A program made the translations under genes and the position numbers. From a phage: a stretch of DNA of 64,000 nt. Numbering within the stretch: position 1 is the stretch's first letter; each line of letters begins with the position of its first letter. Below the pieces are notes generated by a model, which was not told where the DNA came from, did not search any database, and saw nothing but the letters and a program-made list of their open reading frames with translations. This document shows, piece after piece, positions 30,166-49,438 of this stretch. The stretch lies in assembly GCA_028130375.1 (NCBI GenBank), contig GCA_028130375.1_3658.1. The stretch is one strand, 5' to 3'.

Positions 30166-30381
30166 TCAGTCCAGCGGTTCATCCTCTACTTCACTGAAAT
30201 CAATGTTCATGGTCTCTTCCCAACCATCGATCTCAGCACAAGAGTGGAGTTCTTTAGGGTTTACTCCCAAAGCCTCAGCAACAGAGTCTATATTTAACAC
30301 CTCTGGCAGGTATGATTCATCGAATTCAAGGTAAATCAGGCCACGAGTGTTGTCAGCTCCACCAAATATCTCTATCTTCAT
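30166..30381 (-). CDS. hypothetical protein
   Basis: 71 aa acidic ORF. Confidence 0.45.
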   Translation of the reverse strand: MKIEIFGGADNTRGLIYLEFDESYLPEVLNIDSVAEALGVNPKELHSCAEIDGWEETMNIDFSEVEDEPLD

Positions 30382-30502: not shown

Positions 30503-30715
30503 TCATAGTCTACCACCTCTGAACTCTTCGTGCTCAGGCATAATAGAGAACCAGATATCTACGATGTCCTCCCACGTCAGGTCATCAGCCTCAGGATCTG
30601 TCTGGGACGAAGATGAAGAGTCCTCAGAATCTAAGTTTTCCTCTTTAACTGGCTCATCCAAGGGACATATGGTCACTCCTTCGGATGTCTCTTCAGATGC
30701 ATGTGTGTTGATCAT
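30503..30715 (-). CDS. hypothetical acidic protein
   Basis: 70 aa ORF. Confidence 0.45.
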   Translation of the reverse strand: MINTHASEETSEGVTICPLDEPVKEENLDSEDSSSSSQTDPEADDLTWEDIVDIWFSIMPEHEEFRGGRL

Positions 30716-33147: not shown

Positions 33148-33476
33148 TAGTCTTCCCCCAGGTTCAAAGGTCCTAAGATTTCATATGCCAGATTAGAAGT
33201 TACAAGAGGGTCTTCTGCGTCTTTAGTATTATACCACCCGTGAATAACCAGAGCCCCACTTTGTTTCATGTCCAACTGGAACTCTTCTGCCGTTTCCTCA
33301 TCCAGCTCCAAGATTTCCATAAGGTATTTGATGTTAGGGAGGTATGCAGCTGTTACAGTCCCCTCTACCAGACCTTCAGGCCAACCTACATCTGGATGAC
33401 AAGTAGGAACCAGGTTGGTCAGCTTAATGGTGTACGCTTTTTCTGCACGAGCCTTCAGTAACGGGTCAATCTTCAT
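33147..33476 (-). CDS. hypothetical protein
   Basis: 109 aa ORF. Confidence 0.5.
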   Translation of the reverse strand: MKIDPLLKARAEKAYTIKLTNLVPTCHPDVGWPEGLVEGTVTAAYLPNIKYLMEILELDEETAEEFQLDMKQSGALVIHGWYNTKDAEDPLVTSNLAYEILGPLNLGED

Positions 33477-33826
33477 TATTCGTCCTCCTCTTCGGTACCT
33501 GCTTCCAGTAATAAGTTAAGAATATCTTCTGCACAAGGTTCATAGAACTCTTGGCCTTCATTATCGATGATTTTGTAGTCATCTCCACGAATAATCAGGG
33601 GATCACTCTCAAAATTATCGAGACCTTTAACAACGACAACACGATCGATTGCCATCATTGTAAGAACTTTATCGACATCTTCCTCTGCTACACCATACTG
33701 CAGCAGAATGTCTTTGGTAGGAGGAACAGCATCCACCACAACGCCGTTACCAAAACCTTCTGGAAGTTTAGCTAAAATATCTTCCGGAACCACATTCACA
33801 TCAAAACCGGTAATTTCTACTTTCAT
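33476..33826 (-). CDS. hypothetical acidic protein
   Basis: 116 aa ORF. Confidence 0.5.
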   Translation of the reverse strand: MKVEITGFDVNVVPEDILAKLPEGFGNGVVVDAVPPTKDILLQYGVAEEDVDKVLTMMAIDRVVVVKGLDNFESDPLIIRGDDYKIIDNEGQEFYEPCAEDILNLLLEAGTEEEDE

Positions 33827-34087
33827 TTACAGCACCTCTTCGTCAACTACTTCATAAAAATGGCCTGGGATTGCAATAGCGTTCTCACCTTCACCTACAA
33901 ACACAGTTCCGTCAAGAATCAACATCATAAGAATTTCTGTAATATCCTCTTCCGGAACGTTGCCAAAACCTTTAATCAGCTCGTAGGTTGGAATATTTAC
34001 CTCTAAGATGTCACCATCTTTAGAACGGAAATCAACACCGTCCTGAATCTCTGCCGTTTCAAGGTTTTTCAATTTAATCTTCATCAA
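33827..34087 (-). CDS. hypothetical protein
   Basis: 86 aa ORF. Confidence 0.5.
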   Translation of the reverse strand: MMKIKLKNLETAEIQDGVDFRSKDGDILEVNIPTYELIKGFGNVPEEDITEILMMLILDGTVFVGEGENAIAIPGHFYEVVDEEVL

Positions 34088-34163: not shown

Positions 34164-34559
34164 TTACTGAAACAGTGCGGATAAATTACCTTCTGGTGGG
34201 AACTTATCTGCCAAAAACGGTGTTAGCACAGTAGCCTTCTGAAGATCTGGGGTCCACTCGTTGTTCAGAACATCCCAGTAGTACGCAATGTTGCTGTGTG
34301 GGTGCCGCATTACGAACTTTTTCCCTTCGTAGTCATCTGAAACCTCTACAGAAGAAATAACAACAGAATCTTCAAGGGTTTCTTCATAGAAAGATCCACC
34401 TTCAAATTTCCAACGAGATGCAAGAGCCCCTGCCTTGAACGCTGCAGATAACGGACTGTCGGCAAGAACATACATTTCTTGCACTCTGTCGCTGCGATCT
34501 TTGCTTCTTACGTTGTATACAGTATCTGAGCTATACTCAACACGGTATAGGCTTACCAT
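34164..34559 (-). CDS. hypothetical protein (paralogue of 36371-36769)
   Basis: Shares ..(V/R)HP(D/H)S..YW....(T/E)WTP.. with 36371-36769. Confidence 0.5.
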   Translation of the reverse strand: MVSLYRVEYSSDTVYNVRSKDRSDRVQEMYVLADSPLSAAFKAGALASRWKFEGGSFYEETLEDSVVISSVEVSDDYEGKKFVMRHPHSNIAYYWDVLNNEWTPDLQKATVLTPFLADKFPPEGNLSALFQ

Positions 34560-34891
34560 TACCGCACCTCCTCAATAACTTCCACATCTGAACCTACCAC
34601 AAATGCAAAAGGACAGGTTTCATGAAAGATATCCGGATCGCCGCCAAGCTTGCTAACAATTTCTCCACCACTAATAAACACAAGCTCACCGATATTCATC
34701 AGATTGCTGAAATAGTACCCATAATGATTAAAGAATGCAGCAGGGTCAGGTAGACTAGTAGCCTCAAGCACTACATCGGTTGAGGTTACTTTCTTATCAT
34801 AACCTCTCGCCTTTTGAGATGCAAGATCTGCAGAATCCTCAGGCGACCGGAGATGCATAGGAATTGTTTCACCAATAAAGCGTACTTTCAT
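34559..34891 (-). CDS. hypothetical protein, MKVK-type small paralogue family
   Basis: ATG 34891 (MKVRFIG..) chosen over TTG 34918; C-terminal ..FVVGSDVEVIEE.. resembles 36782-37036. Confidence 0.45.
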   Translation of the reverse strand: MKVRFIGETIPMHLRSPEDSADLASQKARGYDKKVTSTDVVLEATSLPDPAAFFNHYGYYFSNLMNIGELVFISGGEIVSKLGGDPDIFHETCPFAFVVGSDVEVIEEVR

Positions 34892-34895
34892 ATTA

Positions 34896-35159
34896 TCACC
34901 CAACAACCATAGCTTCAAAAGGAGTCATGAACGAATAAACGGCATCATCATCTGCTTCAGGGAATGCTCCCAAAGACTTCATATCTGAGCCCTTGACAAA
35001 TACAAGGTTTTGATCAAAGGCTTCTTGGGGGTCAATCCGATACATATTTCGTAAAATATCGCTTACCTCCTCATCAAGAGGTGAGTATGCTGTGCACGTT
35101 TTTCCGATCAAGCTTTGAGAATCAGGGTATCCACCTGAAGTTTTAAAATAAACAATCAT
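34896..35159 (-). CDS. hypothetical protein
   Basis: 87 aa ORF. Confidence 0.45.
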   Translation of the reverse strand: MIVYFKTSGGYPDSQSLIGKTCTAYSPLDEEVSDILRNMYRIDPQEAFDQNLVFVKGSDMKSLGAFPEADDDAVYSFMTPFEAMVVG

Positions 35160-35250
35160 ATAGTATCACCTCTGGTAAGAGATTGGGACTCCTTTCCCAC
35201 AAATAATTACAAATCTTCCTTAGCGAGGAAGTATGCTAATCCAAGCAGGA

Positions 35251-35520
35251 TTATTCCTCTACAATCTCATACACATCAGGAGTTACAATCAACTCTTCTC
35301 CGTTACCCGGTGCAACAAACACCACCAAACCTTCAGGTGTGTGCTTTTTAGCCATCTCGATAACATCTTCTCGCAGAGCTGGCTCCATCAGATCAAAACC
35401 TTCACCTAGGGCATCACGAACCACCTTCATATAGTCCACTGGTTGTGCTTCAACAATCATGCCTTCAACCAGTCCACAATTTTTGTCTGCCAGCTCAGTT
35501 TGGAATAATTTAATTTTCAT
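35251..35520 (-). CDS. hypothetical protein
   Basis: 89 aa ORF. Confidence 0.5.
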   Translation of the reverse strand: MKIKLFQTELADKNCGLVEGMIVEAQPVDYMKVVRDALGEGFDLMEPALREDVIEMAKKHTPEGLVVFVAPGNGEELIVTPDVYEIVEE

Positions 35521-35546
35521 TTAGAGGTCTCCTCAATTATTTGATA

Positions 35547-35648
35547 TTAATAGCCGTAACCTAACACATTAACTACAACTGCGATTGCAAACATAATTTC
35601 AAAGCATGCAATCTCTACATTTGGGACTAATTTCTTAATCACACCCAT
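35547..35648 (-). CDS. small hydrophobic peptide (33 aa)
   Basis: Not in the track; RBS GGAGAATGAGGTG; MGVIKKLVPNVEIACFEIMFAIAVVVNVLGYGY. Confidence 0.3.
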   Translation of the reverse strand: MGVIKKLVPNVEIACFEIMFAIAVVVNVLGYGY

Positions 35649-35657
35649 TGTAGCACC

Positions 35658-35978
35658 TCATTCTCCAAAGTCAATCTTTACTTTGCCTTTCCCCTTACCT
35701 TTCTTTCCACCGCATTTAGCCAGCTGACGTGCTGCAACATCTACCATACGGTCAGTTGCCTCGTAAGCATCACTGCCTTTAGCCTTGGCAATAACTTCTT
35801 TTCCAGAATTGTCAAAAATGAACGCCATAACTTCCTGGTGATCATTTTCAACTTTTACACTCACACGTGCATAGTTAACAGAGGGATGTAAACGCTCCAG
35901 CTTGGACATTTTGCGGGAAATAAAAGATACCATACCTTCTGTGATTTCTACATTGTTGCCAGTGATTTCAATTTGCAT
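35658..35978 (-). CDS. hpf: ribosome hibernation promoting factor / RaiA (S30AE family) homologue
   Basis: 106 aa; MQIEITGNNVEITEGMVSFISRKMSKLERL.. closely parallels bacterial HPF (MQLNITGNNVEIT..AKLEQ..) and ..AARQLAK.. matches ..LARQLTK..; own promoter and RBS. Confidence 0.8.
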   Translation of the reverse strand: MQIEITGNNVEITEGMVSFISRKMSKLERLHPSVNYARVSVKVENDHQEVMAFIFDNSGKEVIAKAKGSDAYEATDRMVDVAARQLAKCGGKKGKGKGKVKIDFGE

Positions 35979-36027
35979 AACGTGTTCCTTTTAAGGAAGA
36001 GGGAATAACTATCTCTCTTTGAAAACA

Positions 36028-36056
36028 ATGATACTAAATCTGAAGCGTTGTGTCAA
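36028..36056 (-). promoter_or_regulatory. sigma70-like promoter on minus strand (TTGACA-17-TATCAT) upstream of hpf
   Basis: TGTCAA at 36051-36056 and ATGATA at 36028-36033 on the plus strand. Confidence 0.5.
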
Positions 36057-36062
36057 CAGTTT

Positions 36063-36353
36063 TTACAGCTTGTTGTCGATAGTTTTTAAAATATCCACAG
36101 CAAGATCTGCCATTTTTCGAACATACTCTGCAAACTCAACAGGATCCTTGATCAAAGAATTCACAGGGTCGTACCCTAGAGCGTTTAAAATGGCTGCAGC
36201 ATCTACAACCTTCTCATCATTTGCGAAGATCTCTCCGTCAAACTTGTAGGTCCATTTCGAGTCAACCTTAGCAGAGCAGGGTTTGTCCATGCTTGTTACA
36301 CTATCGTCTTTAAACTCTCCTGCGTTATCAATATTTAGAATTAAATCCATCAT
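36063..36353 (-). CDS. hypothetical protein
   Basis: 96 aa ORF. Confidence 0.5.
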   Translation of the reverse strand: MMDLILNIDNAGEFKDDSVTSMDKPCSAKVDSKWTYKFDGEIFANDEKVVDAAAILNALGYDPVNSLIKDPVEFAEYVRKMADLAVDILKTIDNKL

Positions 36354-36370
36354 GGTGACACCTCACTGTT

Positions 36371-36769
36371 TCAGTTTAGCTTTTCTTCAACAACCCCATA
36401 ACTTGGGGCAGAGTCAAGAGCTTTCTGGTTTAAAAGTGGCGTAGCAGAATCTGCAAACGGTGTCCAAGTTTTTGTTCTGGCATTCCAGTAATGCTTCACT
36501 CTGGAATCTGGATGCACTATAACAAAAACTTTTTCACTTGTCAACACATTAATTTCTTCTACACCCTTGCTGATAATTTCTCCGTCATAGCCCCCAGTCT
36601 GGTATCCTTCGTACCAGGTTCTTGCATAGGCATAGCCAGCCTGCCAGCATGCAGCCTCCTCCGAGGTGGAGACTACGTAGAAGTCTTTCTCAAATTCTGG
36701 AACACGCCCTTGCTTTACGCTCCAAGCCCCGCGAATTTTCATTGTAACTTTAAACAGTTTATTTTTCAC
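36371..36769 (-). CDS. hypothetical protein (paralogue of 34164-34559)
   Basis: 132 aa; ..VHPDSRVKHYWNARTKTWTPF.. Confidence 0.5.
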   Translation of the reverse strand: MKNKLFKVTMKIRGAWSVKQGRVPEFEKDFYVVSTSEEAACWQAGYAYARTWYEGYQTGGYDGEIISKGVEEINVLTSEKVFVIVHPDSRVKHYWNARTKTWTPFADSATPLLNQKALDSAPSYGVVEEKLN

Positions 36770-36781
36770 AACGGTTACCCA

Positions 36782-37036
36782 TCACAGCTCTACAATATCT
36801 GCATCTGACCCTACCCCAAAGGCATAGTAGGACTCTTCCCCGAAATAATATTCAGGTGCACCAGCGGTGATCAGGTCTGATCCCAAGATAAACACCACGT
36901 TGTGGCCTACATAACTGTGATGTTGCCGCACAGGATCATCCCACGGCAACCCTTCAAAGTATACCGCAGGAACGACCTTTCCATTCAGGAAGGATTGTCC
37001 CAAGTAGATGTTAGAATCAAGAATTTTAACCTTCAT
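36782..37036 (-). CDS. hypothetical protein, MKVK-type small paralogue family
   Basis: MKVKILDSNIYLGQ..DLITAGA.. Confidence 0.5.
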   Translation of the reverse strand: MKVKILDSNIYLGQSFLNGKVVPAVYFEGLPWDDPVRQHHSYVGHNVVFILGSDLITAGAPEYYFGEESYYAFGVGSDADIVEL

Positions 37037-37253
37037 GATCGTCCTCCACTACCTCTACATCCTCACCTAGGGCAAAGTTATAGGTCCACTGACTGTCAAA
37101 GCATTCCTGAGATGCACCAGCGGCAATAAGATCTGCTCCTTTTATTTTTAAAAGGTCAGGGTAATCTTCGTTAGGGACAGCAGTAAACACTTTTCCTACT
37201 AAAGGCTCCTGACCAATATAGAAGCTTGAATCTAAAACTTTAACTTTCATCAA
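37026..37253 (-). CDS. hypothetical protein, MKVK-type small paralogue family
   Basis: MMKVKVLDSSFYIGQ..DLIAAGA..EVVE.. Confidence 0.5.
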   Translation of the reverse strand: MMKVKVLDSSFYIGQEPLVGKVFTAVPNEDYPDLLKIKGADLIAAGASQECFDSQWTYNFALGEDVEVVEDDHEG

Positions 37254-42386: not shown

Positions 42387-43436
42387 TTAAGCTTCTTCGA
42401 CAATTCCTGCACCCAGGATTTTTTCATTGAGCTCTTTTGCTGTTTTAATAATATTGTCCACCAGACGCTTGCGGGTCTTATCTTTCACCTTAACCTCTTC
42501 ACCGCCGTTCAGAGTAGTCTTCAGTTGAGACAGAATATCCTGAAGTTCAACGACAGAGAATCTCTGCAGATCTTCTGAAGTAATCTCACTCAGGGCAATT
42601 CTGACGGTCTCGCCACTTTCCATCTGCAGATTCAGGAACACAGTGTGAACATCACCTTTCGAACCACCCGCTTTTGCAGATTCAACAGCATGAACTAACT
42701 CATCTAAAGATGTGCACTGGTGAATCTCCGGAAGACCTGCTTCACCTAACACGCCTTCTTCATCACCTTTTGCCAGAAGCTTTTTCGGTTTTTGTCCGTT
42801 CTGGATGCGTTGTATGTTGCCTTCATCCAGAATAATAGCTCCAGTGCGTGCTGCCAGCTCTTCTCCGTCCAACCACACTTCGCCACCAGCTGTGATGGAT
42901 GCGATCTCATCTTCTGTCAGCACCCCACCGTAGTATTTTTCGATCAGGCGTTCAAAACGTTTTTTCCAGTAGCTGACCTGAGTATTCATGTTCACACCGT
43001 TACCATAAGTGCCACCTTGATAGTAGTGGAACATAAACTCTGTGTCCGGAGCCACAGTACGTTCTTTACAACCAAGCCATAAGATTGTTCCAGCAGAGCA
43101 GCACATCCCTTCAGCATGTGCAACAACGCTTGCCTGAGACTCTCGGAATGCCTGCAGATAAGCCATTGCAATGTGCACGCAACCCCCAGGGCTATTGATG
43201 ATCACCCGAATGCTTTCTTCCGGCTGAGCCATACGGATCGTCTGCAGACGAGACATATGATCTTGTAAGTCTTCCAAATCGTCGATATAAAGAACGTGGT
43301 CAACAACAGGTGTTGGGTAGCTGTATGTTTCCATGATACCGCCCGGCATACCAAACATTTTATTACTCATAGGTTCGAAACCGTTCTGTTTTTCTTTCAT
43401 GCCGTGTACCATGGTTCTGCGAGGTGTTAAATTCAT
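42387..43436 (-). CDS. ClpP/S49-family serine protease-like protein with long C-terminal helical extension
   Basis: 349 aa; ..VIINSPGGCVHIAMAY.. and ..GMCCSAGTIL.. resemble the ClpP INSPGG and active-site Ser motifs; C-terminal third is charged/helical. Confidence 0.55.
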   Translation of the reverse strand: MNLTPRRTMVHGMKEKQNGFEPMSNKMFGMPGGIMETYSYPTPVVDHVLYIDDLEDLQDHMSRLQTIRMAQPEESIRVIINSPGGCVHIAMAYLQAFRESQASVVAHAEGMCCSAGTILWLGCKERTVAPDTEFMFHYYQGGTYGNGVNMNTQVSYWKKRFERLIEKYYGGVLTEDEIASITAGGEVWLDGEELAARTGAIILDEGNIQRIQNGQKPKKLLAKGDEEGVLGEAGLPEIHQCTSLDELVHAVESAKAGGSKGDVHTVFLNLQMESGETVRIALSEITSEDLQRFSVVELQDILSQLKTTLNGGEEVKVKDKTRKRLVDNIIKTAKELNEKILGAGIVEEA

Positions 43437-43496
43437 GAGAAATCCTTAATATTGGAAGTTGAAAGCTATTTATTTAAACCTGATTCACATTTACCT

Positions 43497-43808
43497 TTAT
43501 TTAGCAATCACTATGGAATACTTACGATTGTCAGAAGCATCACAACTCAATGATTGCCAGTCTACCACATACCACGTATCATTGTCAACAATTACTTTAT
43601 CGCCTGTTCTGTAGCAAGTGCTGCTTTCAATAATTCGAGACTCGATAAAGAATCTGTGTCGGCGCTCACGTAGCAACGCTAAGTTAATTATATTACCACC
43701 GCTGTCCTTGGTCCACACATTCTTGGATCCCTTATTTGCCAAAATTGTCTCGCCGTTATAGACAAACAGGCAGTATATTTTATTCAGTTTCTCTTGTATT
43801 GTAGCCAT
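43497..43808 (-). CDS. hypothetical protein
   Basis: 103 aa ORF. Confidence 0.5.
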   Translation of the reverse strand: MATIQEKLNKIYCLFVYNGETILANKGSKNVWTKDSGGNIINLALLRERRHRFFIESRIIESSTCYRTGDKVIVDNDTWYVVDWQSLSCDASDNRKYSIVIAK

Positions 43809-43836
43809 ACTGTCCTTCTCTCTGTTTTGTCCGATA

Positions 43837-43865
43837 ATAATATCTAAAGCTTACCTATTTGTCAA
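43837..43865 (-). promoter_or_regulatory. sigma70-like promoter on minus strand (TTGACA-17-TATTAT)
   Basis: TGTCAA at 43860-43865 and ATAATA at 43837-43842 on the plus strand. Confidence 0.5.
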
Positions 43866-43909
43866 CAACTGTTTTAGATATTTAAGGGTGGAATAACCAC
43901 CCTTCTGTA

Positions 43910-44698
43910 TTACTCGGAAACAGGGGTCCAAATATGATTTGCACGATCCTCAATAAGATTGAGTGCGATCTGACGACCCAACCCAGAACGAACGACATCG
44001 TCTGGACTATCAAAGCTGATCATTCCAACCTCAGGATCTGGATGACGAGTAAAGAAATCCGTCACCCATGCAAGGCCAGATTTACCAGGGATGTCACGTT
44101 GGCTATTATCACCCATAATTACAAGGGTGGCTTGATCAGAGATCCTTGTGATAATTGACAACATTTCTTCAGGGTTAGTTTGCTGTGCCTCGTCAATCAG
44201 GACAAAGCATCGCTCATCGAAACTACGACCACGAATGCTTTCAACTTCACAAATCTCGATACGGCTGTTCTGACCGTCTCCCAGCATTGCGGCAAAAGCA
44301 CCTTTGCCAACACGACGACAAATCGTGTCCATCATGCTTCGAAGATAGGGCCACAGTTTCTGCATTGCATTTCCAGGTTTAAATCCTGAAGTCTTTCCTG
44401 TCTGAACGTAAGGACGTGCAACAATAATCTTATCAATCTCGTTCTTACGCAGAAGATCACCTGCATATGCAGATGCCATGAATGTCTTACCGGATCCAAA
44501 CACACCGTTTACAATAATAATCTTACGTGACCCTAGATAATCAAGATACTTTTGCTGCTTCTTATTCATTGGTCGGAGAGCTGGAGCGGTGTGCTCTCTT
44601 TCGTCAGCAAATTTCTCAGCAGCCTTACGCAGGCGATCAGATTTGCGAGCCTCTCTAGCTTCATCACGCATGCGTTTTGTTTCTTTAGCTCGACCCAT
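43910..44698 (-). CDS. phoH: PhoH-like ATPase
   Basis: 262 aa; Walker A ..VNGVFGSGKTFMA.., Walker B ..FVLIDEAQ.., ..LVIMGDNSQRD.. as in the PhoH family. Confidence 0.78.
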   Translation of the reverse strand: MGRAKETKRMRDEAREARKSDRLRKAAEKFADEREHTAPALRPMNKKQQKYLDYLGSRKIIIVNGVFGSGKTFMASAYAGDLLRKNEIDKIIVARPYVQTGKTSGFKPGNAMQKLWPYLRSMMDTICRRVGKGAFAAMLGDGQNSRIEICEVESIRGRSFDERCFVLIDEAQQTNPEEMLSIITRISDQATLVIMGDNSQRDIPGKSGLAWVTDFFTRHPDPEVGMISFDSPDDVVRSGLGRQIALNLIEDRANHIWTPVSE

Positions 44699-44736
44699 GT
44701 TGGGACTCCTTTCAGATTGAGATGTGCCAAGTACTT

Positions 44737-45087
44737 TTACTGCAACAGTTTTTCAATAGCCGCTTCCATGCTGCTTGCAACAGCCTGAACTCGGATATTC
44801 ATCTCTTCTTGGTGGATCAGCTCCTTAAGCTCTTTAATGGTAAATTCTTTAGAGAAACCTTCCACCATAATCTTGTGCAAGGCTTCTTGCGTGTCTACTT
44901 GCAAGAACTTTTCCAGTTTGTTGGCAGAGGCTTCTAAATCAGCCCGAATACGAGGGTCATCTGTGCGATTCAGCATTAGGCGTAAGCCATCAAGATTAGT
45001 AGAAATAGCATCTGCATGTTGAGTAACTAACCGTGGCAAAATGAGATCTACAAACTTATTAGCCAAATCGATACGTTCTTGTGTCAC
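44737..45087 (-). CDS. hypothetical protein
   Basis: 116 aa; GTG start overlaps upstream stop. Confidence 0.45.
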   Translation of the reverse strand: MTQERIDLANKFVDLILPRLVTQHADAISTNLDGLRLMLNRTDDPRIRADLEASANKLEKFLQVDTQEALHKIMVEGFSKEFTIKELKELIHQEEMNIRVQAVASSMEAAIEKLLQ

Positions 45088-45197
45088 TGTTGCACCCCCT
45101 CTTCATCTTCATGATGTTTCTTTTCACGCTTGTGTTTTTTCTTAAGCTCAAGCGCAATCTCTTTCTTGTACGCCTTCTTCAAGGCTTTTTTAGCCAT
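45084..45197 (-). CDS. small highly basic protein (37 aa)
   Basis: Not in the track; strong RBS AGAGGAGGTG; MAKKALKKAYKKEIALELKKKHKREKKHHEDEEGVQQ. Confidence 0.35.
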   Translation of the reverse strand: MAKKALKKAYKKEIALELKKKHKREKKHHEDEEGVQQ

Positions 45198-45227
45198 TTG
45201 GCACCTCCTCTGCTTTCATTACGGCAA

Positions 45228-45256
45228 TTATAACCAACTCAACAAAGCTTTGTCAA
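45228..45256 (-). promoter_or_regulatory. sigma70-like promoter on minus strand (TTGACA-17-TTATAA)
   Basis: TGTCAA at 45251-45256 on the plus strand. Confidence 0.45.
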
Positions 45257-45259
45257 CAA

Positions 45260-45733
45260 CTAGTCTACCTGAACCCAACCGCCTGATACTTTTTTAAACA
45301 TTCTTTGGTTATCACTGCCTCTGAACGGTTTCTTGGTTGGTAAATCTTTTACATACTTACCGTCAATGATGATATCAGCCAGTTTAAGAACATCACTAGA
45401 GATATGGTCAAATGTGAACCCAGTATATACAAGAATAGTTTTCTTGTCACCAAATTTTTCCTTAATTTTCTCCATCAGGCTAATAATATCTGGCTCATTA
45501 TAGTATGCTAAGGGTTCTCCACCCAGTAGAGAGATACCGCACACAGACGGGTTATCTAAATCTGACAAGATTTTTTGCAAGTCTTCTTCAGTGAACTTCC
45601 TCCCCTTATCTTTTGACCAAAATGCCTGATTAAAGCAACCAGGGCAAGCGTGTGGGCACCCAGATACCCACAAGGCAGTTCTAATACCTGGTCCTTCGGT
45701 GTAAGATATTTCTGTGTATCCAGCAATGTTCAT
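45260..45733 (-). CDS. nrdG: anaerobic ribonucleotide reductase activating protein (radical SAM)
   Basis: 157 aa; ..VSGCPHACPGCFN.. CxxxCxxC radical-SAM cluster motif; adjacent to nrdD. Confidence 0.85.
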   Translation of the reverse strand: MNIAGYTEISYTEGPGIRTALWVSGCPHACPGCFNQAFWSKDKGRKFTEEDLQKILSDLDNPSVCGISLLGGEPLAYYNEPDIISLMEKIKEKFGDKKTILVYTGFTFDHISSDVLKLADIIIDGKYVKDLPTKKPFRGSDNQRMFKKVSGGWVQVD

Positions 45734-45846
45734 AGATACTCCGCATCACATTTAGGGCAATGCCAAATAAAATCGTCTAGTGCCTTGCACCAACGAAGAT
45801 TACAACTACAGCCGCACTTGCAAATTTTATAAATACCTGATGACAT
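45730..45846 (-). CDS. small Cys-rich protein (38 aa, 8 Cys), coupled to nrdG
   Basis: Not in the track; RBS AGGAGGTG; MSSGIYKICKCGCSCNLRWCKALDDFIWHCPKCDAEYL; stop overlaps nrdG ATG. Confidence 0.4.
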   Translation of the reverse strand: MSSGIYKICKCGCSCNLRWCKALDDFIWHCPKCDAEYL

Positions 45847-45909
45847 ACTGCACCTCCTAGCTCACTGTGTGTCAATAATATGCCACATCCTTGTGGCTTT
45901 TGTCAAGAA

Positions 45910-48033
45910 TCAGCAACCACAACTTCCGTAGTGCTTAACTCGCTCGATAACTTCCGCTTGCTTACCTTTATTGTAAGGACGGGAGTTAGGACTGGAAAGG
46001 TATCCAGACACACGTCGAATTACACTGATCGTTCCCTCTTCATGGTTTCCACACTCTGGGCATACAAAGCCTTTAGCTGTTGCACTGAACTCACCAGAGA
46101 AACCACACTTGAGACATTTATCCACAGGTTGGTTAATACCAAAATACATAATGTGTTTATACCCGAAGTCAACAAGAGCCTCTAAAGCATCCAGGTTGTT
46201 TTTCAGGTTAGGTGTTTCTACGTATCCGATGTTGCCACCAGAGGAGATCATAGCAAAACCTTCCTCATACTCCCACTTATCAAAAGGAGAGCTATTTATC
46301 CATACTGGCTGATGGAAACTGTTGGTGAGATATTCATGCTCGTGCTTCAACACTTCCGGATATTCACGATCCAGACAGGTTGCAGCTTTATAGCATAGAC
46401 TCTCAGAAGGAGTGCCGTACAAGCTAAATGCTAGTCTACTTTCCTTCTTGTATCGCTCACAAGCATCTCTCATGTGCTGAAGGATTCCAAGAGCTAAAGC
46501 CTTGTCACCCTCTCTGCCCAAAATCTGACAGGTTTCATACACACCGATATACCCAATACTGATGGAAGCGTACCCGTCATAGAAGAGTTTATCAATACTC
46601 TCTTCAGGATCCAGGCGAGCAAGAGCGCCTTCACACCACATGATGGGGTTCTGCCCTGCCTTTGTTCCTTTTAGACGATTAACCCTTACAAGGTGAGCCT
46701 CGTATGCAAGATCCAAGTATTCGTCAAGAACTGCAAAGAAATCAACACCTTCCGTCTTGGCTTTTGCCGCAATCATTGGCAGGTTAAGGCTAACAACGCC
46801 TAAGTTAAATCTGCCAAGGTATTTCTCCTCGCCTGTTTCCAAGTCATTGTATTTGCTAAGAAAACTCCTGCAACCCATGCTAGTTACTTTGCCATCTGTC
46901 GAGCCTGTCACTTTTCTATTTAGTGGTACAGATACGAAGTCAGGATAGATACGTTCTGCACAGCATTCCAGAGCTAATCGTTTCAAATCATAGTTAGGAT
47001 CCCCAGGGTTCATGTTGACACCCTCTTCCAGGAAGAACAGCACTTTAGGGAACACAGGTGTGATACGTTCTTCACCAAGACCCATTTTGTGGACTTTCAG
47101 GTAGTTTTTGGTAATCATTCTACCAAAGACCGAGGTATCCAGTCCTAAACTCAATGTGATGAATGGAGTTTGCCCGTTGACAGAAGTTAACGTGTTGATT
47201 TGATAGAGCAAAGTCTGCATGCTGTCAAATACGTCTTTATCTGTCATTTGCATTGCAACAGTTTCAGCATCCGGCAACCAATGTTCCTGGCAAAATTTAA
47301 GGTTCTTCTCATAGGTTGCTTCAGCATACTGTGCCAGATAATGATCAATATGGCTCATAGTCTGACCACCATATTGAGCACTAGCTACCGCACTAGAGAT
47401 TTGGCTAAGGATTGTTGTTGCAACCCCTATTGACTTCGGCTTACTGACATGGGCGTTACCAATGTTGAATCCGTTTTCCAACATATCTGGATAATTTACC
47501 AAACAACAGTTTGTTAACGGACTGATCAAGTAGTCAAGATCATGCACATGGATGAATCCTTTATTGTGCTCTTCGGAGACACGGTCTGGCAGGATCTGTG
47601 TTGATGCAAGGTGTTTGCTAAGAATACCTGCAAGCAGGTCGCGATGAGTGTGTACATGATTAGTAGGCTTATTTGCGTTTTCTTTTGTAAATTCATCACA
47701 AGTTCGATCCAAGAAGCCACTAATATCTGCAAGCAGTTTTCCACCTGCCTCTCTGTTATTATCTCTTGTCTGTCTATACTGGATGTATTCTCTGGCTGCA
47801 CATTTTAAACCCATATCCATAAGAGCATCTTCAACAAGGATATGGATATTTTTTACAGAGATCGTGCACTGGTCGGTTGGTAGATTGTTAGCAACAACTT
47901 CATTAACCGCGCAGGCGATCCGGTAAGCTTCTTCTTCAGTATGTCCAGACTCAAGTAAGGCGGACTCTGCCGCCTTGATCACCTTAATTCCGTTATAGAA
48001 CTCTTCTCTACCGTCCCGTTTTACAACTTTCAC
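45910..48033 (-). CDS. nrdD: anaerobic ribonucleoside-triphosphate reductase (class III)
   Basis: 707 aa; N-terminal ATP-cone-like ..VVKRDGREEFYNG..; C-terminal zinc ribbon CLKCG..CPECG and glycyl-radical region ..IRRVSGYLS.. Confidence 0.88.
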   Translation of the reverse strand: MKVVKRDGREEFYNGIKVIKAAESALLESGHTEEEAYRIACAVNEVVANNLPTDQCTISVKNIHILVEDALMDMGLKCAAREYIQYRQTRDNNREAGGKLLADISGFLDRTCDEFTKENANKPTNHVHTHRDLLAGILSKHLASTQILPDRVSEEHNKGFIHVHDLDYLISPLTNCCLVNYPDMLENGFNIGNAHVSKPKSIGVATTILSQISSAVASAQYGGQTMSHIDHYLAQYAEATYEKNLKFCQEHWLPDAETVAMQMTDKDVFDSMQTLLYQINTLTSVNGQTPFITLSLGLDTSVFGRMITKNYLKVHKMGLGEERITPVFPKVLFFLEEGVNMNPGDPNYDLKRLALECCAERIYPDFVSVPLNRKVTGSTDGKVTSMGCRSFLSKYNDLETGEEKYLGRFNLGVVSLNLPMIAAKAKTEGVDFFAVLDEYLDLAYEAHLVRVNRLKGTKAGQNPIMWCEGALARLDPEESIDKLFYDGYASISIGYIGVYETCQILGREGDKALALGILQHMRDACERYKKESRLAFSLYGTPSESLCYKAATCLDREYPEVLKHEHEYLTNSFHQPVWINSSPFDKWEYEEGFAMISSGGNIGYVETPNLKNNLDALEALVDFGYKHIMYFGINQPVDKCLKCGFSGEFSATAKGFVCPECGNHEEGTISVIRRVSGYLSSPNSRPYNKGKQAEVIERVKHYGSCGC

Positions 48034-48308
48034 TTTTTCTCTCCAAAACCATTCTTAACAAAAGAGATGAAATCGTCGGCACCGCCTATATGGACACTGT
48101 CAAGATCGCTTTCTAAGAAGATCTGCGGCAACGTTCTGGGGACAATTGGACTGCACTTCTCAATAAGCTCTTCTTTTGTGTAGCCCTCGCCAAGTGTCTT
48201 ATATACAAAAGGCAGACCTTTGCTGATTGCAAATTCTTTTGCTCTGACACAATGTGGGCAGTTATCCTTACCGTAAATGATGATGAAAAAAGATTTTTCG
48301 CAGCTCAT
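48030..48308 (-). CDS. glutaredoxin/thioredoxin-like protein (CPHC active site)
   Basis: 92 aa; ..YGKDNCPHCVRAK.. and ..TLPQIF..IGGADDF.. typical of the glutaredoxin fold; between nrdB and nrdD. Confidence 0.7.
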   Translation of the reverse strand: MSCEKSFFIIIYGKDNCPHCVRAKEFAISKGLPFVYKTLGEGYTKEELIEKCSPIVPRTLPQIFLESDLDSVHIGGADDFISFVKNGFGEKK

Positions 48309-48311
48309 ATA

Positions 48312-49400
48312 TTAAAACTCCCAAATTTCTTCTTCAGCGTCGTTAACAGTTGTGTTGACGCGGTAGTCAGTGTTCGACATTTCTTGGTTCGCCGTCTGTT
48401 GTAATGAAGGTTTCATCCACACCTGCATAAACGGTAGCGGGTCCTTTGTTGGCGGCACAAAGTCTTTGTCGATGTCGTAGTAATCATAAATCGGTGAGCA
48501 GTTATAGTCAACCCACTCTTTAAGCAACGGTGAGTTAAGACCTATAATCGCTCTTCCTTCGCTGAAAATATAGTCACTCCAACCGTACTCTTTGGTTCGT
48601 ACTTCATCAAGAATCTCTTTTAACTCCCCCTTTATCTCAAGGAAGCTTTTCTCCCATGCGGGATCATTAAGCAAGATATCAATGATGGCAAAATCACCTT
48701 TCGAATGTAGCATTTCGTCAAGCATGATTTTTTGAACAAGCTGCGCCACCTGAACAAAGATACCCTGTTCAGCTACTGCGAAAGTGCATGCAAAACTTGC
48801 AATAAACTCAATACTTTCCAGAGCTAAAAGCGCAAAAAGCGCTCTAAGAATGCATTTCCGCACAATATCTTCTTCAACACTAGAAGGATCCAGGCGGTAT
48901 TTTGCACCAATAACCTCAAGCTCTTGCATGTATTTGACAATAACGCCGGATCTGCTCAGAACGTTTTGGTTTTCCTGAATCTCTTCTATAATCTCACGGG
49001 CATTGGGGAGGCATTGTCTAACAATCTCTGAGTAAGTTAGTGCGTGAAGAACTTCAATCTCTGACTGTTTCATCAATAGAGTGAAAAGCTCACTATTAGT
49101 GATGAATGGTGAAAAGAGGCAGATGATCGATCTTGCCGCAACGCTATCAGCCTCCCATTGCCACATCAAGGTCTGCACCATCACGTCATAAGTTGACTTT
49201 GAGCATGTTACAAAATCTGAAATAGATTGCGACAAATCCACTTCATCCTCTGCCCAATCTTGCTCTTTTTGTTTTTTGTATAGTTCAAACAGTTGTGGAT
49301 ATTTTTTGTTGATAGAGTCGTACATACCCATTTGCTGTCCCAGAAACAGCGGATAGTCACCAGTTTTATGAGCGGTGTTCTCAGCATTAAATACAGCCAT
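48312..49400 (-). CDS. nrdB: ribonucleotide reductase small subunit (class Ia)
   Basis: Ferritin-like ORF next to nrdA; ATG 49400 (MAVFNAEN..) behind GAGGTAGA chosen over the upstream start at 49460 that overlaps nrdA. Confidence 0.8.
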   Translation of the reverse strand: MAVFNAENTAHKTGDYPLFLGQQMGMYDSINKKYPQLFELYKKQKEQDWAEDEVDLSQSISDFVTCSKSTYDVMVQTLMWQWEADSVAARSIICLFSPFITNSELFTLLMKQSEIEVLHALTYSEIVRQCLPNAREIIEEIQENQNVLSRSGVIVKYMQELEVIGAKYRLDPSSVEEDIVRKCILRALFALLALESIEFIASFACTFAVAEQGIFVQVAQLVQKIMLDEMLHSKGDFAIIDILLNDPAWEKSFLEIKGELKEILDEVRTKEYGWSDYIFSEGRAIIGLNSPLLKEWVDYNCSPIYDYYDIDKDFVPPTKDPLPFMQVWMKPSLQQTANQEMSNTDYRVNTTVNDAEEEIWEF

Positions 49401-49417
49401 TATTCTACCTCTAAAAT

Positions 49418-49431
49418 GGGGCCGAAGCCCC
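49418..49431 (-). terminator. terminator-like hairpin between nrdA and nrdB (GGGGC-UUCG-GCCCC)
   Basis: GC stem with UUCG-type loop and weak T-tract on the minus strand; may act as an attenuator. Confidence 0.35.
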
Positions 49432-49438
49432 TTTAAAA

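What the first reader, a model, noticed from the sequence alone, without database searches (positions are those of the whole stretch)
35658..36056. Phage-encoded ribosome hibernation factor (HPF/RaiA) with its own sigma70 promoter
The 106-aa product parallels bacterial HPF/YfiA nearly residue for residue at the N-terminus (MQIEITGNNVEITEG.. vs MQLNITGNNVEIT..) and in the C-terminal helix (..AARQLAK..). A phage copy would let the virus control host ribosome dimerisation or protect ribosomes during infection. It sits inside an array of small genes of unknown function, so it may belong to a larger translation-takeover module.
Basis: partly seen in the sequence, partly recalled or inferred. Interest (0 to 1): 0.7.

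Follow-up and report, generated by a model that had tools for sequence, protein, structure and literature searches.

The report
Known rV5 phage HPF homologue
This is the already annotated and published ribosome-hibernation-factor (HPF) homologue of rV5-like E. coli phages; the gene and its promoter are real, but it is a diverged, tailed version whose role in infection is still unproven.

Summary
A 106-aa ORF on the minus strand (35658..35978) is a significant member of the HPF/RaiA (Ribosomal_S30AE) family: Pfam 56.7 bits against a cut-off of 23.7, and E. coli HPF in the PDB at E about 4e-15. [quoted passage not shown] A near-consensus sigma70 promoter (TTGACA-17-TATCAT, 36056..36028) precedes it.

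It is not new. The window is a rV5-like Vequintavirus, and the gene is rV5 ORF144 with promoter P144, both annotated in GenBank DQ832317. Mizuno et al. 2019 described it, expressed it in E. coli, and found it neither in 70S/100S fractions (high salt) nor affecting 100S formation. Mathieu et al. 2020 noted it again.

New here:
- The protein is under strong purifying selection (median dN/dS about 0.06).
- It is old in the phage lineage and fully phage-like in composition.
- It fails both the short-HPF and RaiA equivalog cut-offs.
- It has lost several conserved ribosome-contact residues (E. coli R17, K80, K89, R33, H55, H62, H95).
- It carries a conserved Lys/Gly-rich C-terminal tail that none of about 260 cellular homologues has.

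The "translation-takeover module" idea has no support: neighbours have no recognisable function, and no RMF-like gene or tRNA is present. Novelty: already known. Interest is low to moderate.

The parts
36028..36062 (-). Sigma70-type promoter (rV5 P144): extended -35 block AAACTGTTGACA (36062-36051), 17-nt spacer, -10 TATCAT (36033-36028)
   Evidence: Consensus scan gives 11 of 12 matches. The rV5 record annotates it as 'Sigma70-type promoter; P144'. The -35 block is invariant in 11 rV5-like copies and in the divergent P0004 lineage. It is one of 21 strand-consistent near-consensus sites, against 1.9 expected. Activity and timing are inferred, not shown.
35979..36021 (-). 5' untranslated leader with a weak hairpin (AAGAGAG 36019-36013 / CCCTCTT 36003-35997) and Shine-Dalgarno AAGGA (35990-35986)
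   Evidence: Read from the sequence. The fold is -7 kcal/mol with z about -0.9, not better than shuffles. The hairpin is absent from the divergent lineage. The transcription start is assumed to lie about 7 nt after the -10 element.
35658..35978 (-). hpf-like CDS, 106 aa plus stop (rV5 ORF144 homologue)
   Evidence: ORF list. PF02482 56.7 bits, TIGR00741 56.8 bits, NF007780 65.2 bits (below its cut-off of 125). PDB E. coli HPF at E about 4e-15. 100% identical copies occur in slur16, MaxBurger, A51.2 and others. Median dN/dS is 0.06.
35709..35978 (-). Residues 1-90: folded S30AE domain, beta1(2-8) alpha1(14-30) beta2(34-44) beta3(47-56) beta4(61-68) alpha2(71-90)
   Evidence: AlphaFold2 model with block-mean pLDDT of 90-95 through residue 80 and 83 for residues 81-90 (whole-protein mean 84.0). 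All 36 top Foldseek PDB hits are HPF/RaiA/pY; 4hei_A has TM 0.91 and rmsd 1.0 A, and 6h4n_x has TM 0.88.
35661..35714 (-). Residues 89-106: lineage-specific Lys/Gly-rich basic tail CGGKKGKGKGKVKIDFGE
   Evidence: Residues 92-106 are predicted disordered (pLDDT below 50). Net charge is +4. The tail is conserved in rV5-like copies; the divergent lineage has a different but also basic tail ending K-W-D-Y, against K-I-D-F here. It is absent from all of about 260 cellular homologues collected.
35547..35648 (-). 33-aa hydrophobic ORF 9 nt downstream of hpf, probably co-transcribed
   Evidence: ORF list. phrog_15151 at E = 4e-26, unknown function. Annotated as a CDS in rV5, JES2013 and FV3. Absent from the divergent lineage. 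Co-transcription is inferred.
35251..35520 (-). 89-aa acidic ORF, syntenic downstream neighbour of hpf in both phage lineages
   Evidence: phrog_11868, unknown function, no Pfam hit. It is 60% identical in the P0004 lineage with dN/dS about 0.13. A functional link to hpf is not shown.
35215..35231 (-). Terminator-like hairpin (CTTCCTCGCTAAGGAAG followed by ATTTGTAATT) that may end the P144 unit
   Evidence: Consensus scan. It is a weak site: 6-bp stem, 3 GC pairs. Terminator-like sites were not enriched over shuffles in this region.

Best explanation
The gene is the rV5-type phage homologue of the bacterial short hibernation promoting factor. It is a single S30AE domain that an ancestor of the Vequintavirus lineage took long ago from a gammaproteobacterial (Enterobacterales-like) hpf gene, and the phage has kept it under strong purifying selection.

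It is transcribed by host RNA polymerase from a near-consensus sigma70 promoter, so it is probably made early in infection (inferred).

The most likely mechanism, also inferred, is that it binds vacant 30S/70S ribosomes in the HPF/RaiA cleft between the 30S head and body. It keeps K23, K26, R29, R84, K88 and K92 of the rRNA-contact track. It has lost contacts that characterise the 100S-forming E. coli HPF: E. coli K80, K89, R17, the E-tRNA contact R33, the uS9/m2G966 contacts H55, T53 and H62, and the G693-stacking H95. In their place it carries a 17-residue Lys/Gly-rich tail that leaves helix alpha2 where the HPF C-terminus sits in the mRNA path at the E site.

Its predicted behaviour is therefore RaiA-like rather than HPF-like: a weak, salt-sensitive, monosome-level occupant of the decoding site that does not promote RMF-dependent 100S dimers and may compete with host HPF/RaiA/RMF. 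The proposed benefit to the phage is control or protection of the pool of idle host ribosomes early in infection or in non-growing hosts.

Shown: homology, fold, conservation, promoter motif. Inferred: ribosome binding, tail placement, timing, benefit.
For: Homology: family membership above curated thresholds; full-length alignment to E. coli HPF at E about 4e-15.

Fold: AF2 model with mean pLDDT 84; the top 36 PDB fold hits are all HPF/RaiA/pY.

Subfamily: the phage protein scores 65 bits on the short-HPF model against 23 bits on the RaiA model, and RaiA itself cross-scores 70.5 bits on the HPF model, so the phage protein is a separate HPF-derived branch.

Selection and age: present in all 119 rV5-like records at 93-100% identity, plus a 65%-identical lineage at the syntenic position. 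Median dN/dS is 0.06 within the clade, and pN/pS is 0.30 with saturated pS between lineages. GC3 is 35.5%, equal to the phage background.

Contact residues: published cryo-EM contacts for Gram-negative HPF are K26/Q29, H55/E60, T53/H62, and K80, R83, K87, K89, K91 (10.1101/2025.10.07.680626), plus R33/K93/H95 (10.1101/382572). The column-by-column comparison is: 5 of 8 basic sites are kept, and only 1 of 91 cellular homologues lacks K/R at all of positions 17, 80 and 89. In S. aureus HPF, the equivalents of K80/R83 are critical for dimerisation, while binding is lost only when both helices are mutated (PMC4889938).

Tail: basic and conserved. The RaiA tail heads toward the RMF site.

Experiment: rV5 HPF expressed in E. 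coli does not change 100S (PMC6375957).

Promoter.
Against: The only experiment found, Mizuno et al. 2019, detected the rV5 protein in crude extract but not in purified 70S/100S fractions. A genuine loss of ribosome binding therefore cannot be excluded. The authors list high-salt washing and growth phase as alternative reasons.

Loss of K80 and K89, which the 2025 preprint calls strictly conserved contacts, could abolish binding rather than weaken it.

The position of the tail on the ribosome is extrapolated from E. coli HPF and RaiA structures, and the tail itself is predicted disordered.

No transcriptomic or proteomic timing data for this gene were found. No deletion phenotype is known.
Confidence: 0.55

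Rival explanations
1. Canonical short HPF. The phage protein works with host RMF to convert 70S into 100S dimers, putting host ribosomes into hibernation or stabilising them as dimers during infection.
For: The closest solved and cellular relatives are 95-aa short HPFs of Enterobacterales. The best subfamily score is on the short-HPF model. K23, K26, R84, K88 and K92 are retained.
Against: Expression of rV5 HPF in E. coli had no discernible effect on 100S particles, and the protein was absent from 100S fractions (PMC6375957). It scores 65 bits against a cut-off of 125 on the HPF equivalog model. It has lost K80, whose S. aureus equivalent is critical for dimerisation, as well as K89, R33 and H95. 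The added tail resembles the arrangement in RaiA, which antagonises 100S formation. No phage RMF-like gene is present.
Confidence: 0.15
2. Neofunctionalised domain. The S30AE (dsRBD-like) fold has been repurposed and no longer acts on the ribosome. It could bind another RNA, a protein, or a nucleotide signal, as the phage sponge Acb4 is proposed to have evolved from the same kind of RNA-binding fold. On this reading it would be one more early anti-host or anti-defence protein.
For: The protein was not found in ribosome fractions. Its ribosome-contact surface is remodelled, yet dN/dS is about 0.06, so a function is being maintained. It has a lineage-specific conserved tail with a K-x-D-aromatic end in both lineages. 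It sits in an early array of small, mostly very acidic proteins of unknown function. SPO1 Acb4 is structurally similar to V. cholerae HPF 4HEI (10.1101/2024.12.30.630793).
Against: Five of eight basic rRNA-contact positions, and nearly all core and family-signature positions, are retained. All 36 significant PDB fold matches are ribosome hibernation factors, with no sponge protein among them. The negative binding result was obtained under conditions that strip loosely bound factors. No alternative ligand or partner is indicated by any result.
Confidence: 0.2
3. Anti-hibernation or anti-defence decoy. The protein binds the HPF/RaiA site only transiently. It displaces host HPF/RaiA and, through its tail, RMF, which wakes hibernating ribosomes of stationary-phase hosts. 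Alternatively it shields the decoding centre and the 16S 3' end from RNases or abortive-infection toxins. This is a sub-case of the best explanation with a specified direction of effect.
For: Mizuno et al. proposed competition with cellular homologues to prevent dimer formation. Host hibernation factors block YbeY and RNase R access to the 16S rRNA (PMC7913689). RMF rises in a DRT2-mediated dormancy response (PMC13434031). Weakened contacts plus the basic tail are consistent with this.
Against: There is no direct evidence. Any occupant of the A/P-site cleft also blocks translation, so waking ribosomes requires fast off-rates that have not been measured. No phenotype is known.
Confidence: 0.25
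4. Decaying or non-functional host-derived passenger gene (or an annotation artefact).
For: A few records have a truncated or frameshifted tail (Murica at 99 aa, APECc02). No function has been demonstrated.
Against: There are 36 synonymous against 14 non-synonymous variable codons, and median dN/dS is 0.06. The gene is intact in about 119 genomes and in a lineage with saturated synonymous divergence. The promoter and RBS are conserved. The protein was detected by MS when expressed.
Confidence: 0.02

Closest known systems
Escherichia phage rV5 ORF144 / ABI79209 ('sigma 54 modulation factor', later annotated as hpf, 'ribosome hibernation factor' or 'RaiA'), as described by Mizuno et al. 2019 (PMC6375957)
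   Same: It is the same gene: 97% amino-acid identity, the same position between the 96-aa and 33/89-aa genes, and the same promoter P144. About 22 deposited phages carry the 106-aa allele at 99% identity or more, several of them 100% identical to the window's.
   Different: The window carries the 106-aa allele (GNNVEIT, R22, V34), whereas rV5 itself has 105 aa (GNVEIT, H22, A34).
E. coli short HPF (YhbH; NF007780; PDB 2rql, 4v8h, 6h4n)
   Same: Same fold, with domain length about 90 aa and N-terminus MQ(L/I)xITGNNVEIT. The D-x-Y-x-A-x-D and ARQL motifs and K23, K26, R83, K87 and K91 are conserved. TM is 0.84-0.88.
   Different: Identity is only 42-44%. It scores 65 bits against the 125-bit equivalog cut-off, while E. 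coli HPF scores 205. R17V, R33S, T53F, H55F, H62I, K80V and K89G are changed, and there is no H95. It has a 17-residue Lys/Gly tail and pI 9.0, against 6.5 for E. coli HPF. It is not in the rpoN operon. No 100S effect was seen when it was expressed.
E. coli RaiA / YfiA / protein Y (NF007654; PDB 1n3g, 4v8i)
   Same: Same fold and ribosomal site family. It has a C-terminal extension beyond helix alpha2 of similar length (113 against 106 aa). The predicted consequence, 70S-level inactivation without 100S, is what the phage protein most resembles functionally.
   Different: The phage protein scores only 22.8 bits on the RaiA model, against a cut-off of 158. The RaiA tail is acidic (net -3) and unrelated in sequence, whereas the phage tail is basic (+4). 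The RefSeq name 'RaiA' given to the phage protein is therefore not supported at subfamily level.
HPF-like proteins of jumbo phages (Cronobacter phage GAP32 K4F6Q6, Escherichia phage PBECO4 L7TII8, Xanthomonas phage XaC1)
   Same: They are phage-encoded S30AE-domain proteins of about 110 aa with the same fold.
   Different: They are only 23-25% identical in structure-based alignment and were not found by tblastn with the window protein at 1e-5. They represent independent acquisitions.
Phage sponge Acb4 (Bacillus phage SPO1)
   Same: It is a small phage protein whose monomer is structurally similar to V. cholerae HPF and dsRBD folds.
   Different: There is no sequence or significant fold match here, since all fold hits at E <= 1e-3 are hibernation factors. 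Acb4 acts as an oligomeric nucleotide sponge. Nothing indicates that for this protein.

Membership tests
HPF/RaiA family (Pfam PF02482 Ribosomal_S30AE; TIGR00741) | Sequence match above the curated family threshold over the whole domain | tested here: met
   PF02482 scores 56.7 bits against 23.7, covering residues 3-89 of the protein and profile positions 1-83 of 88. TIGR00741 scores 56.8 against 40.9. The relatives P0001 and P0004 also pass TIGR00741.
HPF/RaiA family (Pfam PF02482 Ribosomal_S30AE; TIGR00741) | [quoted passage not shown] | tested here: met
   The AF2 model has elements E2-8, H14-30, E34-44, E47-56, E61-68 and H71-90. Foldseek against 4hei_A gives TM 0.91 and rmsd 1.0 A, and the top 36 hits are all family members.
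HPF/RaiA family (Pfam PF02482 Ribosomal_S30AE; TIGR00741) | Conserved basic track on helices alpha1 and alpha2 that contacts 16S rRNA (E. coli K23, K26, K80, R83, K87, K89, K91, plus R/K17) | tested here: inconclusive
   Five of eight sites are kept (K23, K26, R84, K88, K92). R17V, K80V and K89G are lost in both phage lineages. Of 91 cellular homologues, 84 have at least 6 of 8, and only 1 lacks K/R at all of positions 17, 80 and 89.
HPF/RaiA family (Pfam PF02482 Ribosomal_S30AE; TIGR00741) | Binds the 30S decoding cleft of vacant ribosomes and blocks tRNA/mRNA sites | not testable with these tools
   The one published test found the rV5 protein absent from salt-washed 70S/100S fractions, although it was present in the extract. 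The authors consider this inconclusive (PMC6375957).
Short HPF (YhbH) equivalog, NF007780 | Score above the equivalog cut-off; 95-aa protein ending ...KDKLKQH | tested here: not met
   It scores 65.2 bits against a cut-off of 125, while E. coli HPF scores 204.8. Of the 120 best profile hits, 113 are exactly 95 aa, whereas the phage protein is 105-106 aa with a different C-terminus.
Short HPF (YhbH) equivalog, NF007780 | Promotes or stabilises RMF-dependent 100S dimers | not testable with these tools
   Published result: no discernible effect on 100S when expressed in E. coli NM522. The residues seen in the native 100S structure (R33, K93, H95) are not conserved.
RaiA/YfiA equivalog, NF007654 | Score above the equivalog cut-off; acidic C-terminal tail that overlaps the RMF site | tested here: not met
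   It scores 22.8 bits against a cut-off of 158. A tail is present, but it is basic (+4 against -3) and unrelated in sequence. Overlap with the RMF site is not testable here.
Long HPF (Gram-positive type) | C-terminal dimerisation domain after the S30AE domain (about 180-190 aa in total) | tested here: not met
   The protein is 106 aa. Only PF02482 was detected, and the tail is 17 residues and predicted disordered.
Sigma70-dependent early phage promoter | -35 and -10 hexamers close to consensus with 16-18 nt spacing, upstream of the gene on the coding strand, and conserved in relatives | tested here: met
   TTGACA-17-TATCAT matches 11 of 12 positions. It is conserved in 11 relatives, with the -35 block invariant in the divergent lineage. 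The class is enriched 21 against 1.9 and is strand-consistent. It is annotated as P144. In vivo activity was not tested.

The most novel reading that the evidence does not exclude
The rV5-type protein is not simply a stolen HPF but the founder of a third, phage-specific branch of the HPF/RaiA family. It has shed the contacts needed for stable, 100S-type hibernation and gained a conserved basic tail ending in K-x-D-aromatic. It would act either as an anti-hibernation or ribosome-shielding factor that overrides host RMF/HPF/RaiA or ribosome-targeting defences, or on a non-ribosomal target altogether.
Probability: 0.25. Interest if true: 0.6.

Novelty: already known. Interest (0 to 1): 0.22.

Why it matters
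Phage-encoded ribosome-associated proteins are one of the few direct routes by which viruses might reprogramme bacterial translation. This HPF homologue is the standard cultivated example, and its function is still open after one negative binding experiment.

The residue-level picture given here suggests why the published assay was negative: HPF-specific contacts are lost, a conserved basic tail has been gained, and the protein forms a distinct subfamily. It also points to concrete mutants and conditions to test. As a discovery, however, the finding adds nothing new, because the gene, its family assignment and its promoter have been in public records since 2006 and in the literature since 2019.

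Tried and rejected
(1) Translation-takeover module. Ten flanking ORFs were scanned against Pfam (no hits) and PHROGs (only unknown-function families). An all-vs-all BLAST and an RMF query against 45 minus-strand ORFs between 28 and 40 kb found only two small paralogue groups and no RMF-like protein. ARAGORN found no tRNA or tmRNA in the 64 kb. Rfam found nothing credible at 33-39 kb. The idea is rejected for lack of evidence.

(2) Regulatory 5'UTR structure. The hairpin AAGAGAG/CCCTCTT folds no better than shuffles (z about -1), shows no compensatory change, and is missing from the divergent lineage. It is not pursued as a feature.

(3) Recent capture from the host, as Mizuno et al. suggested. 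This is rejected. The best cellular identity is 35-44%, GC and GC3 equal the phage background, and synonymous sites are saturated between two syntenic phage lineages.

(4) The RefSeq 'RaiA' label is rejected at subfamily level.

(5) Literature searches for functional or transcriptomic work on Vequintavirus hpf beyond Mizuno 2019 and Mathieu 2020 found nothing.

(6) The word-indexed protein search with the single sequence returned only phage copies. The exhaustive search and a profile search were needed to reach cellular homologues.

(7) An Acb4-like sponge: no sequence was available to compare, and the fold search gave no sponge hit.
Full report
WHAT IS THERE. The finding's coordinates (35658-36056) hold a 106-codon ORF on the minus strand (35658..35978, ATG start) and the 84-nt intergenic region upstream of it. 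The product is MQIEITGNNVEITEGMVSFISRKMSKLERLHPSVNYARVSVKVENDHQEVMAFIFDNSGKEVIAKAKGSDAYEATDRMVDVAARQLAKCGGKKGKGKGKVKIDFGE.

Its family scores are:
- Pfam PF02482 (Ribosomal_S30AE): E = 4.2e-15, 56.7 bits, cut-off 23.7.
- TIGR00741 (HPF/YfiA family): 56.8 bits, cut-off 40.9.
- Short-HPF equivalog model NF007780: 65.2 bits, below its cut-off of 125.
- RaiA equivalog model NF007654: 22.8 bits, cut-off 158.

Against PDB sequences the best matches are E. coli HPF (2rql, 4v8h, 6h4n) at E = 4e-15 to 2e-14. An AlphaFold2 model built on a 61-sequence alignment has mean pLDDT 84 and the order beta1-alpha1-beta2-beta3-beta4-alpha2, with residues 92-106 disordered. The 36 Foldseek PDB matches with E <= 1e-3 are all HPF/RaiA/pY proteins, the best being V. 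cholerae HPF 4hei_A (TM 0.91, rmsd 1.0 A) and E. coli HPF in the 100S structure 6h4n_x (TM 0.88).

THE PROMOTER. On the minus strand, TTGACA (36056-36051), a 17-nt spacer and TATCAT (36033-36028) match 11 of 12 consensus positions. An AAGGA Shine-Dalgarno lies 7 nt before the ATG.

A single such site could be chance, because the tool's looser class (at least 9 of 12) is not enriched: 15 found against 11.7 expected. The stringent class is different. Sites matching at least 11 of 12 occur 21 times in the window against 1.9 +/- 1.4 in first-order Markov simulations. All ten below 27.2 kb are on the + strand and all eleven above 30 kb are on the - strand, which matches the coding strands of the two convergent gene arms. 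The extended -35 motif AAACTGTTGACA, allowing up to 2 mismatches, is also enriched: 25 against 9.5 +/- 3.2. The -35 block is unchanged in 11 related phages. It is also invariant in a lineage whose intergenic sequence is otherwise largely different. Early transcription by host RNA polymerase is a reasonable inference but was not shown by any data I could find.

IT IS ALREADY KNOWN. The 2-kb region is 97-99.8% identical to 116 records of rV5-like phages (genus Vequintavirus). In the rV5 type record (DQ832317) the gene is 'ORF 144, sigma 54 modulation factor', and the promoter is annotated as 'Sigma70-type promoter; P144'. Other records call the gene hpf, 'ribosome hibernation factor' or 'RaiA'.

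Mizuno et al. 2019 (PMC6375957) list the rV5 protein ABI79209 among virus-encoded ribosomal proteins and place it among gammaproteobacterial HPFs. They suggest it might compete with cellular homologues to prevent dimer formation. With the protein expressed from pBAD24 in E. coli NM522, ribosome profiles showed no effect on 100S. MS found the protein in crude extract but not in 70S/100S fractions purified under high-salt conditions. The authors leave open growth phase, salt stripping, or a genuine loss of ribosome binding as explanations. Mathieu et al. 2020 (PMC6969025) note the hpf gene again in five new rV5 isolates. I found no later functional or transcriptomic work.

WHAT THE ANALYSIS ADDS.

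(1) Distribution. tblastn of the window protein finds it in 119 phage records at 93-100% identity, and in no other phage group at E <= 1e-5. E. coli HPF as query finds 130 records, of which about 119 are the same rV5-likes. The rest are a jumbo Xanthomonas phage and a few fragments. Structure search adds the jumbo phages GAP32 and PBECO4 at 23-25% identity, which are independent acquisitions.

(2) Age. An exhaustive search of 1.84 billion cluster representatives gives one close relative (P0004, 66% identity) and then nothing above about 44%. P0004 lies in 125-137-kb rV5-like contigs at the same position: 93/96-aa gene, promoter, hpf, 89-aa gene. Between the two lineages pS is 0.83 (saturated) and pN is 0.24. 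The closest cellular proteins are 95-aa short HPFs of Enterobacterales (Serratia, Yersinia, Citrobacter and others) at 35-44% identity. The gene's GC (41.4%) and GC3 (35.5%) equal the phage background of 43%. The capture is therefore old, not recent as Mizuno et al. inferred.

(3) Selection. Among ten rV5-like copies there are 36 codons with only synonymous variation against 14 with amino-acid changes. Median pairwise dN/dS is 0.06. The gene is clearly maintained for a function.

(4) Subfamily. E. coli HPF scores 204.8 bits on the HPF equivalog model, RaiA cross-scores 70.5, and the phage proteins score 50-65. The phage protein is thus about as far from HPF proper as RaiA is, although it derives from the HPF side (only 23 bits on the RaiA model).

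(5) Contact residues. Cryo-EM of Gram-negative HPF-ribosome complexes identifies several contacts (10.1101/2025.10.07.680626):
- K26/Q29, near m3U1498.
- H55/E60, with the uS9 C-terminus.
- T53/H62, with m2G966.
- The strictly conserved alpha2 track K80, R83, K87, K89 and K91.
In the native E. coli 100S, R33 and K93 additionally touch the E-site tRNA, and the C-terminal H95 stacks on G693 at the -3 mRNA position (10.1101/382572).

In an alignment with 91 cellular homologues, the phage protein keeps K23, K26, R29, E61, R84, K88 and K92, along with the fold-determining positions G7, T13, L27, V39, E44, G59, A64, D70, Y72, A74, D76, D80 and Q85. In both phage lineages it has V at R/K17 and V or T at K80, G or S at K89 and S or T at R33. 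It also has F or R at T53, F at H55 and I or M at H62, and no H95. Only 1 of 91 cellular homologues lacks K/R at all of positions 17, 80 and 89. The phage protein has 5 of 8 basic contact sites, where 84 of 91 cellular proteins have at least 6. In S. aureus HPF the equivalents of K80/R83 are critical for dimerisation, while abolishing binding required mutating both helices (PMC4889938).

(6) The tail. After alpha2 the phage protein continues with CGGKKGKGKGKVKIDFGE (net +4; whole protein pI 9.0, against 6.5 for E. coli HPF). The tail is conserved among rV5-likes. The divergent lineage has a different but also basic tail (SKSKGIDKRTAKWDY) with a similar K-x-D-aromatic end. None of about 260 cellular homologues collected has a Lys/Gly run. 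RaiA also has a tail, acidic and unrelated, which heads toward the RMF site and is linked to its antagonism of 100S formation.

MECHANISM. Taking these together, my best reading (about 0.55) is a ribosome-site binder with RaiA-like rather than HPF-like behaviour. It would occupy the head/body cleft of vacant 30S/70S through the retained alpha1/alpha2 basic residues. It would bind less tightly, or differently, than HPF because the HPF-specific contacts are gone. Its basic tail would run from the E-site end of alpha2 along the mRNA exit path, where it could collide with RMF/anti-SD, and it would not promote 100S. This fits the published lack of a 100S effect, and it could also explain loss during high-salt purification.

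Why the phage wants this is inferred only. It might protect idle ribosomes after host mRNA decay or against nucleases, since host hibernation factors block YbeY and RNase R (PMC7913689). It might instead out-compete host hibernation factors in non-growing hosts.

The rivals are:
- A canonical 100S-promoting HPF (0.15), contradicted by the experiment and the lost residues.
- A repurposed domain that no longer touches the ribosome (0.2). The negative binding result allows this, and there is a precedent in Acb4, a phage nucleotide sponge with an HPF-like fold. However, no fold or sequence hit supports it.
- A decaying passenger gene (0.02), refuted by the selection analysis.

CONTEXT. The gene sits about 6-8 kb from the distal end of the minus-strand arm, in a run of about 45 small ORFs. 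Ten neighbours have no Pfam match and fall into unknown-function PHROGs. Two paralogue groups exist (phrog_7379 and phrog_5009), and most of the small proteins are strongly acidic. Further upstream in the same arm are a ClpP-like protease, PhoH, NrdG/NrdD and NrdB/NrdA. There is no tRNA in the window, no RMF-like ORF and no Rfam family nearby.

The immediate transcription unit may be P144 - hpf - 33-aa hydrophobic ORF - 89-aa acidic ORF - weak terminator-like hairpin at 35231-35215. Only the 89-aa gene is syntenic in the divergent lineage, where it has its own promoter-like site. Nothing indicates a translation module.

VERDICT. Novelty is 'already known'. Residual interest lies in the unresolved function and in the phage-specific features documented here, namely the lost contacts, the conserved basic tail and the distinct subfamily. 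These make the published negative result interpretable and suggest specific experiments.

Noticed in passing
whole window; e.g. + strand 2536, 8599, 9363, 9799, 14904, 17452, 18878, 20432, 20746, 27140; - strand 62431, 60616, 52522, 45256, 43865, 40252, 38415, 36544, 36056, 34145, 30038: There are 21 near-consensus (at least 11 of 12) sigma70-type promoters against about 1.9 expected. All are on the + strand below 27.2 kb and all on the - strand above 30 kb, matching two convergent gene arms. Many share an extended xxxxTGTTGACA -35 block.
   Followed up: partly
window 34164-34559 and 36371-36769; 36782-37036, 37026-37253 (weakly also 34559-34918 and 34896-35159): Paralogous small genes flank hpf. 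Two are phrog_7379 members (28% identical, shared ...HP.S....YW......WTP motif). Two to four are phrog_5009-like members. All are of unknown function with no Pfam hit.
   Followed up: partly
window 30166-30381, 30503-30715, 33476-33826, 33827-34087 (minus strand): These are very acidic small ORFs (net charge -16, -17, -21 and -13 in 71, 70, 116 and 86 aa). That composition is typical of phage early host-takeover or DNA-mimic-type proteins. They were not analysed further.
   Followed up: no
window 35952-35957 (codons 8-9 of hpf) and 35661-35714 (tail): Allelic length variation occurs. The window and about 22 records have GNNVEIT (106 aa, as in E. coli HPF), whereas rV5 and most others have GNVEIT (105 aa). 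YN3 lacks two tail residues. Murica and APECc02 have a frameshifted or truncated tail (99 aa in Murica) within the purine-rich GGAAAGAAAGGTAAGGGGAAAGGC run, which could be sequencing error.
   Followed up: partly
window 35647-35674 (minus strand): A second promoter-like site (TTGACT-16-TACAAT with an upstream TG, 10 of 12) lies inside the last codons of hpf, directly in front of the 33-aa hydrophobic ORF (35648-35547). That ORF is absent from the divergent P0004 lineage.
   Followed up: no
public records matching window 35000-37000: Eighteen GenBank records named 'Campylobacter phage' (MG0656xx, host C. jejuni, unannotated) are 97-99.8% identical to this rV5-like coliphage region. They look like mislabelled or contaminating coliphages.
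   Followed up: no
public records: OR062525, OR062530, MT884009, MT884011 (hpf); nom_135, A6-1 XLZ96104, navn and SophiaRose (89-aa gene = window 35251-35520): Annotation errors have propagated. In several records hpf is labelled 'ATP-dependent protease La type I'. In others the unrelated downstream 89-aa gene is labelled 'sigma 54 modulation factor'.
   Followed up: no
window 42387-51754 (minus strand): Upstream in the same arm lie auxiliary-metabolism genes: a ClpP-like protease (42387-43436), PhoH (43910-44698), NrdG-like radical-SAM activase (45260-45733), anaerobic RNR NrdD (45910-48033), and class I RNR small and large subunits (48312-49460, 49439-51754).
   Followed up: partly
L002 6313-6395 (divergent rV5-like contig, between hpf and the 89-aa gene): In the P0004 lineage the 33-aa ORF is replaced by an intergenic stretch. 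It carries another AAACTGTTTACA -35-like block and a perfect 7-bp inverted repeat, CTGTAGT-AC-ACTACAG.
   Followed up: no
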